Positions 3,280-3,527 of a stretch of 64,000 nt of DNA are shown here, in pieces. The translations under genes and the position numbers were made by a program. How positions within the stretch are numbered: the first letter of the stretch is position 1; every line of letters begins with the position of its first letter. The stretch is from an uncultured Clostridia bacterium. GTDB taxonomy: Bacteria > Bacillota > Clostridia > Christensenellales > UBA1242. The stretch spans positions 66,447-130,446 of the forward strand of contig CAKVHE010000002.1 of NCBI GenBank assembly GCA_934747885.1, read 5' to 3'. The notes under the pieces were generated by a model, which saw nothing but the letters and a program-made list of their open reading frames with translations, had not been told where the DNA came from and searched no databases.

Positions 3280-3337
3280 AAGATTGTTAGTAACAAACTA
3301 ACAACCCCCAAAACCCTAAGGAGAGGAGGAGGTTTTT

Positions 3338-3505
3338 ATGGCAAAATCAATGGGCATAAAAGTGGCTCAAAGCCTGGCGATTCCAGCATTTTTCGGGGGG
3401 GGGGGGGGGCATTATTTAGCCACTAAACAAAGATGTTTTGAAAAAACATCTTGGGCTAAAACTAACGCCGAAATAAACGCTAATTATTCACTTTACAGAA
3501 GGTAA
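3338..3505 (+). CDS. 55-codon leader or small ORF containing a G15 tract (MAKSMGIKVAQSLAIPAFFGGGGGHYLATKQRCFEKTSWAKTNAEINANYSLYRR)
   Basis: A strong RBS AAGGAGAGGAGGAGG (3318-3332) lies 5 nt before ATG 3338. The ORF is below the size cutoff of the supplied ORF track. Its stop TAA 3503-3505 lies in a terminator stem. Confidence 0.45.
   Translation: MAKSMGIKVAQSLAIPAFFGGGGGHYLATKQRCFEKTSWAKTNAEINANYSLYRR
3395..3409 (+). repeat. homopolymeric G15 tract (candidate slipped-strand phase-variation site)
   Basis: Counted directly: 15 consecutive G, encoding Gly5 in the leader ORF frame. Confidence 0.9.
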
Positions 3506-3527
3506 ACAGCTTTGTTTACCTATTTTT
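3500..3527 (+). terminator. intrinsic terminator after the leader ORF
   Basis: AGGTAAACA-GCTT-TGTTTACCT forms a perfect 9-bp stem with a 4-nt loop, followed by ATTTTT. Confidence 0.75.

What the first reader, a model, noticed from the sequence alone, without database searches (positions are those of the whole stretch)
3318..3527. G15 tract inside a leader ORF whose stop codon lies in a terminator stem: candidate phase-variable attenuator of surface-protein paralog 1
Only at this copy of the family is the conserved promoter cassette (TATAAT 3274-3279) separated from the structural gene, by a ~330-nt insert. The insert has a very strong RBS (AAGGAGAGGAGGAGG, 3318-3332), ATG 3338 and a 55-codon ORF that is absent from the supplied ORF track. 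Codons 20-24 of that ORF are an uninterrupted run of 15 G (3395-3409), far outside expectation for ~40% GC DNA. The stop TAA (3503-3505) sits inside the 5' arm of a perfect 9-bp hairpin followed by TTTTT (3500-3527). With G15, or any run length divisible by 3, ribosomes run into the hairpin and should block its folding. With G14 the frame hits TAG after 3 codons, and with G16 it hits TAA after 5 codons. Both early stops lie about 80 nt before the hairpin and would leave the terminator free to form. I see no -35/-10 pair between 3528 and 3612, so the 531-aa gene probably depends on read-through. Slipped-strand changes in the G tract would then switch the gene ON or OFF through translation-coupled termination, not through promoter spacing or truncation of the structural gene. 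G15 is also the shortest homopolymer that can form a three-tetrad G-quadruplex.
Basis: partly seen in the sequence, partly recalled or inferred. Interest (0 to 1): 0.8.

Follow-up and report, generated by a model that had tools for sequence, protein, structure and literature searches.

The report
Poly-G leader-peptide attenuator phase switch
A run of 11-15 G's inside a tiny upstream reading frame that ends inside a transcription stop signal very probably works as a random ON/OFF switch for surface-protein genes of an uncultured human-gut Clostridia bacterium; this design has so far been shown experimentally only for Streptococcus gallolyticus pili.

Summary
G15 is the only G or C run longer than 6 in 64 kb.

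The tract is not an artefact. Independent human-gut assemblies with identical flanks carry G15, G14 and G12 at this locus.

The leader is not unique to this gene. The same cassette (strong SD, 19 codons, G tract, 31 codons, TAA inside the 5' arm of a hairpin plus T run) precedes DUF6273 family paralogs at seven or more chromosomal loci in related strains. Tract lengths are 11, 12, 14 or 15. In-frame and out-of-frame alleles occur at the same orthologous locus.

Across three diverged tail sequences, one frame always stays open to the hairpin. The other two frames stop within 2-11 codons. The peptide shows no amino-acid-level constraint. The hairpin keeps pairing through compensatory changes. 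In two copies only about 25 nt separate the T run from the main ATG, so the gene must be read through the terminator.

It is not a new principle: S. gallolyticus pil1/pil3 use GCAGA repeats in a leader peptide in the same way (PMC3894217). This is a new homopolymer-based, multi-locus variant.

The parts
3224..3262 (+). 16-bp hairpin plus T run inside the conserved promoter cassette. It is a likely terminator or insulator for upstream transcription, and its 3' arm holds the -35.
   Evidence: I2; conserved at all three paralogs in the window
3252..3279 (+). Sigma-70-type promoter: TTGAGA, 16-nt spacer, TATAAT.
   Evidence: 11 of 12 matches; shared by paralogs 2 and 3
3284..3304 (+). [quoted passage not shown] It is also present in the leaderless paralogs.
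   Evidence: all pairs kept in 7 leaders
3305..3316 (+). C-rich motif CCCCCAAAACCC, specific to the leader. It is predicted to pair with the G tract.
   Evidence: predicted pairing only; no covariation possible
3318..3332 (+). Strong Shine-Dalgarno sequence of the leader ORF.
   Evidence: GGAGG conserved in nearly all leader copies (GGAGA in L025)
3338..3505 (+). Leader ORF of 55 codons: 19 codons, then 5 Gly codons from the G tract, then 31 codons, then TAA.
   Evidence: in-frame versions are called as 54-55-aa genes in public assemblies
3395..3409 (+). G15 hypermutable tract, the switch itself. It is in frame when its length is a multiple of 3.
   Evidence: G14, G12 and at least G12 in other assemblies with identical flanks
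3417..3426 (+). Early stops of the two alternative frames: TAG 3417-3419 and TAA 3424-3426.
   Evidence: motif ATTTAG..CTAAA conserved in all leader types
3415..3461 (+). Stem-loop just after the early stops, with a perfect 10-bp core at 3430-3439/3443-3452. It may be a pause or anti-antiterminator hairpin. Bases 3424-3438 are also complementary to 3504-3518.
   Evidence: (I5, I10); type-2 leaders have AGTCGCTAAAAGCGACT at the same place
3500..3527 (+). Intrinsic-terminator-like attenuator: 9-bp hairpin 3500-3508/3513-3521, then A and T5. The leader stop TAA 3503-3505 lies in the 5' arm.
3518..3546 (+). Second hairpin that pairs the T run with a downstream A run (ACCTATTTTTGC/GCAAAAACAGGT).
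   Evidence: I9; similar T-run/A-run pairs in leader variants b and c
3553..3588 (+). Four to five tandem heptads of AAGTGAA between the terminator and the main SD. Function unknown; absent from some leader copies.
3600..3606 (+). Shine-Dalgarno sequence (GAAGGAG) of the structural gene.
3613..5208 (+). Controlled gene: a 531-aa protein with an N-terminal transmembrane or signal helix, beta-rich domains and a C-terminal DUF6273 domain.

Best explanation
This is a phase-variable transcription attenuator.

How it is laid out. Transcription starts at the conserved promoter (-10 at 3274-3279) and first produces a leader of about 240 nt. A ribosome loads at the strong SD and translates a short ORF that contains the G tract. 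Slipped-strand mispairing during replication changes the tract length by one or a few bases (inferred from length differences between assemblies).

The ON state. When the tract length puts the ORF in frame (a multiple of 3 in this copy; 2 mod 3 in most sister copies), the ribosome runs 31 codons further. It stops on a TAA that lies inside the 5' arm of the terminator hairpin. Its footprint covers that arm and the loop, so the hairpin cannot form while RNA polymerase is on the T run. Transcription then continues into the DUF6273 surface-protein gene.

The OFF state. In either other frame the ribosome stops 2-11 codons after the tract, 58-86 nt before the stem TAA. The hairpin folds and most transcripts end at about 3527. 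This gives OFF or low expression.

The wider picture. The cassette sits in front of several paralogs, so a population would display stochastic combinations of these surface proteins.

What is shown and what is inferred. Shown here: the anatomy, its conservation, tract-length polymorphism between assemblies, and the absence of room for another promoter in some copies. Inferred: slippage within a population, termination at the hairpin, ribosome-dependent read-through, and the direction of the switch (long peptide = ON). The direction is taken by analogy with S. gallolyticus pil1.
For: 1. The tract is real and variable. At this locus, with otherwise identical DNA, the window has G15, L001 has G14, L003 has G12, and one contig ends inside the tract.

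2. In-frame and out-of-frame alleles occur at the same orthologous locus. The locus after DUF421 has G12 or an interrupted tract (out of frame) versus G11 (in frame). The locus after L21-Prp-L27 has G12 (out) versus G14.

3. The same cassette precedes family paralogs at seven or more loci. Each in-frame leader peptide whose context I looked up in the public protein collection lies 100-330 nt upstream of a family gene (four look-ups; one downstream gene is cut off by the contig end).

4. In the 13 leader copies with the window-type or type-2 tail, the frame after the tract runs exactly 31 codons to a TAA at the same position of the hairpin 5' arm. In the one third-type copy (L025) it runs 26 codons to a TGA 13 nt before the stem. 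The other two frames stop after 2 and after 4 (once 11) codons. This holds although the window tail and the type-2 tail are only 53% identical. Shuffles keep the long frame open in only 9%, 12% and 18% of cases for the three tail types.

5. Substitutions in the tail are 5 synonymous to 16 non-synonymous and are spread evenly over codon positions (5/9/6). None creates a stop in the long frame. What is conserved is that the frame stays open, not the peptide, as expected for a regulatory leader.

6. The hairpin plus T run is kept in five sequence variants (-6.9 to -12.8 kcal/mol). 92% of cells are paired against 36-46% when the partners are slid, and two pairs show compensatory AU-to-GC changes. 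Free leader RNA folds into the terminator in the MFE structure.

7. No promoter-like site lies between terminator and gene. In L017 and L020 only about 25 nt separate the T run from the ATG.

8. There is an experimental precedent for exactly this logic: S. gallolyticus pil1/pil3 (PMC3894217).
Against: - No reads, RNA or protein data were available. Length differences of 1-3 G between Illumina assemblies could partly be homopolymer miscalls.
- Seven of the ten copies found without bias toward in-frame alleles are exactly G12. This is more uniform than a freely drifting tract would suggest.
- The hairpins are only moderately stable, with 5-T tails. Variant e (L025) has a poor T run and its stop lies 13 nt before the stem. 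The L024 hairpin is weakened.
- L023 has CTG in place of the leader ATG.
- Ribosome masking needs tight transcription-translation coupling. This is not general in Firmicutes (Bacillus subtilis, from my own knowledge), although it works in Streptococcus.
- The covariation support is modest: 33-36 of 500 shuffles reach the observed score.
Confidence: 0.7

Rival explanations
1. The same switch operates, but through Rho-dependent polarity or mRNA decay instead of ribosome masking of an intrinsic terminator. An early stop would expose about 80 nt of untranslated RNA, which recruits Rho or RNases.
For: The out-of-frame stops leave 58-86 nt of naked RNA. The hairpins are of moderate strength with short T runs.
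Against: The stop codon sits at the same position inside the hairpin arm in four of five hairpin variants. That is unexplained if the hairpin were irrelevant. The exposed stretch is A/G-rich and C-poor, so it would make a poor rut site (read from the sequence). The hairpin plus T run is conserved.
Confidence: 0.1
2. The G tract acts independently of reading frame. It could work as RNA or DNA structure (pairing with the C-rich 5' UTR motif to sequester the leader SD, or a G-quadruplex). Alternatively, RNA-polymerase slippage on the tract could mix frames, so that expression is graded and not switched.
For: The C-rich motif 3305-3316 is specific to the leader and is predicted to pair with the tract in every copy. 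Homopolymers of 11-15 are long enough for transcriptional slippage (own knowledge; reviewed in PMC5009743, listed but not read).
Against: This does not explain why one frame is kept open for exactly 31 codons up to the hairpin while the other two are closed at once, in diverged tails. The SD-sequestering helix has almost no covariation. G11-G12 copies cannot form a three-tetrad quadruplex.
Confidence: 0.1
3. The small ORF is a true phase-variable small-protein gene with its own terminator. The downstream gene is expressed independently.
For: The ORF has a strong SD, and gene finders call it when it is in frame.
Against: There is no amino-acid-level constraint (5 synonymous to 16 non-synonymous). 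No Pfam family matches. Only 5 representatives exist among 1.84 billion proteins. The ORF is always directly upstream of a family gene. No promoter-like site follows the terminator, and in L017 and L020 only about 25 nt are available.
Confidence: 0.07
4. The poly-G is a sequencing or assembly artefact (two-colour chemistry poly-G, or a chimeric join).
For: Several contigs end in or near the tract (L002, L020, L022). Homopolymer lengths are error-prone.
Against: The tract is internal, with the same unique flanks on both sides, in at least 14 contigs from at least 11 independent assemblies made with different assemblers. It lies at homologous positions of seven or more loci.
Confidence: 0.02

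Closest known systems
[quoted passage not shown] 2014, PMC3894217)
   Same: The order of parts is the same: promoter, leader ORF containing a simple-sequence repeat, intrinsic terminator, surface-structure genes. The repeat number sets the frame. Leader peptides that end within or next to the hairpin give high expression. Peptides ending 28 nt or more upstream give low expression. More than one locus per genome is controlled.
   Different: The repeat here is a mononucleotide G run (11-15), not 13-23 copies of GCAGA. There is no sequence homology. The host is an uncultured Clostridia lineage, not a Streptococcus. The targets are single DUF6273 genes of a paralog family at seven or more loci, not sortase-pilus operons. 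Here the stop codon is fixed inside the stem and both alternative frames stop almost at once. Nothing here has been tested experimentally.
E. coli pyrBI and rph-pyrE attenuators (ribosome following RNA polymerase blocks the terminator hairpin; the rph-1 frameshift lowers pyrE expression).
   Same: An upstream ORF is translated up to or through an intrinsic terminator, and this prevents termination. A frameshift that stops translation early increases termination.
   Different: Those systems sense UTP through polymerase pausing. The rph-1 frameshift is a fixed laboratory mutation, not a reversible repeat-based switch.
Classical leader-peptide attenuation (trp, his, leu operons)
   Same: A leader peptide, an intrinsic terminator, and control by the position of the ribosome.
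   Different: There are no regulatory codon runs. The signal is genetic (the frame), not tRNA charging. An antiterminator is only hinted at (3424-3438 versus 3504-3518; GGGCAAACG versus CGTTTGCCC) and is not conserved in all variants.
Intragenic G-tract phase variation (Bifidobacterium breve sortase-pilus genes, PMC9187656; Campylobacter jejuni poly-G genes, PMC11955535)
   Same: A hypermutable G run switches a surface structure of a gut bacterium ON and OFF by a frame change.
   Different: There the tract lies in the structural gene and truncates the protein. Here it lies in a separate leader ORF and would act on transcription of an intact gene.
Clostridioides difficile cwpV switch (an invertible element that creates a terminator in the leader). 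Cited from my own knowledge.
   Same: A phase-variable surface protein in a member of the Clostridia, controlled by premature termination in the 5' leader.
   Different: cwpV uses site-specific DNA inversion and a recombinase. Here no flanking inverted repeats of that kind were seen, and the variable element is a homopolymer.

Membership tests
SSR-in-leader-peptide transcription attenuation (S. gallolyticus pil1 type) | A promoter followed by a short translated leader ORF with its own SD and start codon, upstream of the structural gene | tested here: met
   Promoter at 3252-3279, SD at 3318-3332, ATG at 3338. The ATG is conserved in 13 of the 14 copies; L023 has CTG. Translation itself was not measured.
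SSR-in-leader-peptide transcription attenuation (S. gallolyticus pil1 type) | A simple-sequence repeat inside the leader ORF, with a unit length not divisible by 3 and a copy number that varies | tested here: met
   G runs of 11, 12, 14 and 15, including different lengths at the same orthologous locus with identical flanks. Variation within a population was not testable.
SSR-in-leader-peptide transcription attenuation (S. gallolyticus pil1 type) | An intrinsic terminator between the leader ORF and the structural gene | tested here: met
   Hairpin plus T run predicted in all copies, with compensatory changes. Termination activity was not measured.
SSR-in-leader-peptide transcription attenuation (S. 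gallolyticus pil1 type) | One frame ends within or next to the terminator; the other frames end well upstream (28 nt or more) | tested here: met
   The stop lies in the 5' arm of the stem (13 nt before it in L025). The other frames stop 58-86 nt upstream.
SSR-in-leader-peptide transcription attenuation (S. gallolyticus pil1 type) | Read-through depends on translation of the leader (start-codon, stop-codon and terminator-deletion mutants) | not testable with these tools
   Needs reporter constructs or in vitro transcription-translation.
SSR-in-leader-peptide transcription attenuation (S. gallolyticus pil1 type) | Heterogeneous (bimodal) expression within a clonal population | not testable with these tools
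   The organism is uncultured, and no reads or single-cell data were available.
Classical amino-acid leader-peptide attenuator (trp type) | A run of regulatory codons for the controlled amino acid in the leader | tested here: not met
   The leader peptides carry no such run apart from the Gly codons made by the tract itself. The downstream gene is not biosynthetic.
Classical amino-acid leader-peptide attenuator (trp type) | Conserved, mutually exclusive antiterminator and terminator structures | tested here: inconclusive
   Candidate pairings exist in the window-type tail and in the type-2 tail with terminator b. They are only partial with terminators c and d.
Promoter-spacer SSR phase variation | The repeat lies between or next to the -35 and -10 hexamers | tested here: not met
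   The tract starts 116 nt downstream of the -10, inside an ORF.
Intragenic SSR phase variation of the structural gene | The repeat lies inside the coding sequence of the controlled protein | tested here: not met
   The tract lies 204 nt upstream of the start of the 531-aa ORF. The structural genes contain no G or C run longer than 6.
Known RNA families (Rfam 15) | A match at or above the gathering score | tested here: not met
   The best hit scores 22.8 bits against a gathering score of 40, to an unrelated snoRNA model.

The most novel reading that the evidence does not exclude
The leader may be a portable, recombining switch cassette (SD, 19 codons, G tract, 31 codons, stop in the terminator). 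It has spread to seven or more paralogous surface-protein loci of one uncultured gut Clostridia lineage. Its head and tail modules are exchanged at the G tract itself. Each cell would then display a stochastic combination of DUF6273 proteins, giving a homopolymer-driven, transcription-level antigenic repertoire. An upstream copy of the terminator arm may additionally act as an antiterminator clamp that locks read-through once the ribosome has masked the stem.
Probability: 0.4. Interest if true: 0.65.

Novelty: new variant of a known kind. Interest (0 to 1): 0.55.

Why it matters
Only one leader-peptide SSR attenuator has been characterised experimentally (S. gallolyticus pil1/pil3), and I found no other in the literature library searched here. 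A second, unrelated example would matter for three reasons.

- It would show that this is a recurring solution for switching surface proteins without truncating them. The example here uses a homopolymer and is copied in front of many paralogs in an uncultured human-gut commensal.
- It would give a simple sequence signature for finding more cases in metagenomes: a strong SD, a short ORF with a homopolymer, and a stop inside a terminator stem.
- It warns annotators that intergenic poly-G tracts and uncalled small ORFs can control intact downstream genes.

It also marks the DUF6273 family as probable host- or phage-exposed variable surface proteins in this lineage.

Tried and rejected
- **Family in GTDB genomes.** A scan of GTDB representative genomes for the surface-protein family found no relative.
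- **Nearest genomes.** The closest genomes by DnaB are about 68% identical uncultured Clostridia MAGs. They keep SerRS-DnaB synteny but lack the family, the leader and any G or C run of 8 or more at the locus. No cross-genus comparison was therefore possible.
- **JGI metagenome scan.** It gave only two loci. One was useful (L016), at about 2x coverage, so its interrupted tract (GGGGTGGGAG) may be a read error.
- **Exact 55-aa leader.** It is not on record as a called gene.
- **Rfam.** No match.
- **Pfam on the leader peptide.** No match.
- **Purifying selection on the leader peptide.** None found, so the small-protein reading was rejected.
- **SD-sequestering helix and C-run/G-tract pairing.** Predicted in every copy, but covariation is too weak to claim.
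- **Inversion-switch reading.** No suitable flanking inverted repeats.
- **G-quadruplex idea.** Set aside because sister copies have G11-G12.
- **Structure of the 531-aa protein.** The model has pLDDT 80 but only weak PDB matches. The best is the T. ramosa IgA peptidase at a low TM-score. This supports 'secreted beta-rich protein' and nothing more specific.
- **rph-1/pyrE precedent.** The papers retrieved do not describe the mechanism. It is cited from my own knowledge only.
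Full report

- A TATAAT at 3274-3279 is paired with TTGAGA at 3252-3257 (16-nt spacer, 11 of 12 matches).
- The purine-rich SD AAGGAGAGGAGGAGG lies at 3318-3332.
- An ATG at 3338 opens a 55-codon ORF that ends at TAA 3503-3505.
- An uninterrupted G15 at 3395-3409 occupies codons 20-24.
- A perfect 9-bp hairpin lies at 3500-3508/3513-3521, followed by A and TTTTT. Its free energy is -10.8 kcal/mol, z = -3.3.

The TAA lies at positions 4-6 of the 5' arm. G15 is the only G or C run longer than 6 in the 64-kb window. With G14 the frame stops at TAG after three codons. 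With G16 it stops at TAA after five codons. Both stops are 79-86 nt before the stem TAA. No sigma-70-like site was found on the + strand between the leader promoter and position 4011.

**Context**

The window comes from an uncultured Clostridia bacterium of the human gut. The same DNA occurs in Hadza and other gut assemblies. The nearest GTDB representatives are Clostridia MAGs with only about 68% DnaB identity.

The gene downstream of the leader (3613-5208) encodes a 531-aa protein. It has an N-terminal hydrophobic helix, beta-rich domains and a C-terminal DUF6273 domain. Two paralogs in the window (39351-41309 and 45280-46857) share its first 220 or so residues and a 117-nt promoter cassette. 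In those two the -10 lies 39 nt from the ATG. Only paralog 1 has the extra 295 nt or so.

**The G tract is real and its length differs between samples**

Looking up the exact 531-aa protein in public assemblies returned three more contigs from other samples. Across the whole 490-nt intergenic region they are identical to the window except in the tract. The lengths are G15 (window), G14 (L001) and G12 (L003). One contig starts inside the tract (L002). An internal tract with the same unique flanks in independent assemblies cannot be a two-colour-chemistry or chimera artefact. Only the exact lengths carry the usual homopolymer uncertainty.

**The leader is a family-wide cassette, not a one-off insert**

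The family has about 58 detectable relatives with two N-terminal sequence types. Upstream regions of paralogs with the par1-type N-terminus were examined in the same samples and in related strains. Each one that reached back as far as the tract contains a homologous leader with a G tract (L016-L021 and L023). L022 begins only in the leader tail, just before the terminator, and L020 begins 4 nt before the leader ATG.

I then searched 5.8 billion proteins with a profile of in-frame leader peptides. This found ten short proteins of 33-72 aa. The four I could look up each lie 100-330 nt upstream of a family gene; in L026 that gene is cut off by the contig end (L024-L027). A profile search of 1.84 billion representatives found only five. 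The peptide family is therefore confined to this lineage.

Judged by the neighbouring genes, at least seven different chromosomal loci carry the cassette:

| Locus | Neighbouring genes | Copies |
|---|---|---|
| A | 851-aa protein upstream, SerRS downstream | window, L001, L003, L023 (L002 ends inside the tract) |
| B | DUF421 upstream | L016, L018, L026 |
| C | L21-Prp-L27 upstream | L021, L027 (L022 covers only the terminator end) |
| D | PBP downstream | L019, L020 |
| E | SpoIID upstream | L017 |
| F | PNPase upstream | L024 |
| G | GlyRS upstream | L025 |

**The design is conserved while the sequence is not**

In 13 of the 14 leader copies, the layout is the same: the start codon, then 57-58 nt, then the tract, then exactly 31 codons ending at TAA in the motif AGG TAA, which forms the start of the hairpin 5' arm. 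The second frame stops after 2 codons (TAG). The third stops after 4 codons (TAA), or after 11 in L017.

A third tail type (L025) stops at TGA 13 nt before the stem. The window tail and the commoner type-2 tail are only 53% identical over these 93 nt. Dinucleotide shuffles of the three tail types keep the long frame open in 9%, 12% and 18% of trials. If the tails are treated as independent, the joint chance is about 0.002. That is an upper-quality estimate, because the first 20 nt or so are shared.

Among nine distinct type-2 tails, the 20 variable sites fall 5/9/6 on codon positions 1/2/3. They give 5 synonymous and 16 non-synonymous changes, and none creates a stop in the long frame. What is conserved is that the frame stays open and where it ends, not the peptide. 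That is the signature of a regulatory leader and argues against a functional small protein.

**The terminator**

Five hairpin variants occur: AGGTAAACA/TGTTTACCT, GGTAAACGA/TCGTTTGCC, GGTAAACGAA/TTCGTTTACC, GGTAAGCAAA/TTTGCTTATC and GGTAAC..GTTGCC. Their energies run from -6.9 to -12.8 kcal/mol, and all but the last are followed by a T run of four or five.

On an alignment of eight distinct versions, 92% of cells pair, against 36-46% when the partners are slid by one to three columns. Two pairs show AU-to-GC double changes. The shuffle control is only moderately exceeded (33-36 of 500 shuffles), as expected for so few sequences.

Free leader RNA folds into the terminator in the minimum-energy structure of most copies. 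The hairpin is clearly weaker than the terminator after the structural gene (-16.4 kcal/mol). That suits a regulated, leaky attenuator.

**The gene depends on read-through**

No + strand promoter-like site lies between terminator and ATG in the window, L017, L023 or L026. In L017 and L020 the T run ends about 25 nt before the main ATG, which leaves no room for a promoter plus SD.

**Both states exist in nature**

Tract lengths and frame states at the loci sampled more than once:

| Locus | In frame | Out of frame |
|---|---|---|
| A | G15 (window), G12 (L003) | G14 (L001), G12 (L023, type-2 tail) |
| B | G11 (L026) | G12 (L018), interrupted tract (L016) |
| C | G14 (L027) | G12 (L021) |

These are drawn. 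Among the ten copies found through the structural protein (so with no bias toward in-frame alleles), two are in frame and eight are out of frame. This is compatible with a repertoire in which most copies are silent. A caution applies: seven of those ten are exactly G12, which is more uniform than I would expect from free drift, and I cannot check reads.

**Mechanism**

A ribosome that reaches the stem TAA covers the 5' arm and the loop, and so prevents terminator formation while the polymerase is on the T run. A ribosome released 58-86 nt earlier cannot do this.

Two further features may sharpen the switch, but neither is established.
- A stem-loop lies directly after the early stops in both tail types (window 3415-3461; AGTCGCTAAAAGCGACT in type 2). 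It could pause the polymerase.
- An upstream copy of the terminator arm could pair with the 3' arm once the 5' arm is masked. In the window this is 3424-3438, complementary to 3504-3518 at 14 of 15 positions and at 15 of 15 in L026. In type 2 it is GGGCAAACG against CGTTTGCCC. This pairing is only partial with hairpin variants c and d.

**Comparison with known systems**

A full-text search found that exactly this logic has been demonstrated in Streptococcus gallolyticus (Danne et al. 2014, PMC3894217).
- GCAGA repeats in a leader-peptide gene change the frame.
- Leader peptides that end 28-39 nt or more before a stem-loop terminator give low pilus expression.
- Peptides that end within or after the terminator give high expression.
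- Start-codon, stop-codon and terminator-deletion mutants confirmed that the effect depends on translation.
- The pil3 locus has the same arrangement.

Further searches found no other example, and none with a homopolymer. Intragenic G-tract switches of gut bacteria, such as those in Bifidobacterium breve pilus genes (PMC9187656), differ because they truncate the structural protein.

The present element meets every sequence-level criterion of the S. gallolyticus type. It is unrelated in sequence, repeat type, host and target, and it is multiplied over a paralog family, with head and tail modules exchanged around the tract. L023 has a window-like head and a type-2 tail. L026 has the reverse.

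**Verdict**

The novelty is that of a new variant of a known, rarely documented kind. Confidence in the full mechanism is about 0.7, because no transcription, translation or read-level data could be examined.

Noticed in passing
window 3553-3588: Four to five tandem heptads (AAGTGAA) lie between the attenuator and the main-gene SD. They are conserved as AGTRAAN x5 in L016, L021, L024 and L027 but are absent from leaders with a short spacer (L017, L020). They might be a protein- or RNA-binding array; the function is unknown.
   Followed up: partly
window 3424-3438 vs 3504-3518; L027 and L024 leader tails: An upstream copy of the terminator arm is complementary to the terminator 3' arm (14/15 in the window, 15/15 in L026; GGGCAAACG against CGTTTGCCC in type-2 leaders). 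When the stem TAA is masked as if by a ribosome, the MFE structure uses this pairing. It is a candidate antiterminator, but it is only partial with hairpin variants c and d.
   Followed up: partly
window 3305-3332 vs 3375-3409: The C-rich motif plus the leader SD are predicted to pair with codons 13-19 plus the G tract in every leader copy. This would hide the leader SD after the first round of co-transcriptional loading. Covariation is too weak to judge.
   Followed up: partly
window 3224-3262 (also 39257-39295 and 45186-45224 by homology): The conserved promoter cassette of all three paralogs contains a 16-bp hairpin plus T run, and its 3' arm carries the -35 hexamer. It looks like a terminator or insulator fused to the promoter.
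   Followed up: no
L023:1035-1104, L026:2501-2569, P0064: The leader modules are mosaic, with the junction at the G tract. L023 (the orthologous par1 locus in another strain) has a window-like head and a type-2 tail. L026 has a type-2 head and a window-type tail. L023 also has CTG instead of ATG at the leader start.
   Followed up: partly
window 39351-41309: Paralog 2 shares the N-terminal 220 or so residues but replaces DUF6273 with a C-terminal region that gives weak Hint/intein-like hits. Relatives P0037, P0043, P0047 and P0048 carry PF01079, and P0046 carries PF07591. This resembles polymorphic-toxin architecture.
   Followed up: no
L019:~1005-1040, L021, L027:~2275-2310, L023:~1370-1410: A palindromic REP-like element (GCCCATAGTATTGTTACATGGGC and GC-rich neighbours) recurs in either orientation in the intergenic regions that hold the leaders. 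L017 has a GC-rich insertion that splits an older promoter cassette.
   Followed up: no
window 39294-39300: A T7 run sits in the -35/-10 spacer of the leaderless paralog 2 promoter (T-rich also in paralog 3). It is short, but it is at the classical position for spacer-length phase variation.
   Followed up: no
window 58000-64000: GC content drops from about 0.40 to 0.32-0.34 over the last 6 kb of the window. This may be a horizontally acquired segment.
   Followed up: no
window 8304-10145: The alanyl-tRNA synthetase ORF is only 613 aa, so it lacks the usual C-terminal part. The same length was called in the other assemblies.
   Followed up: no
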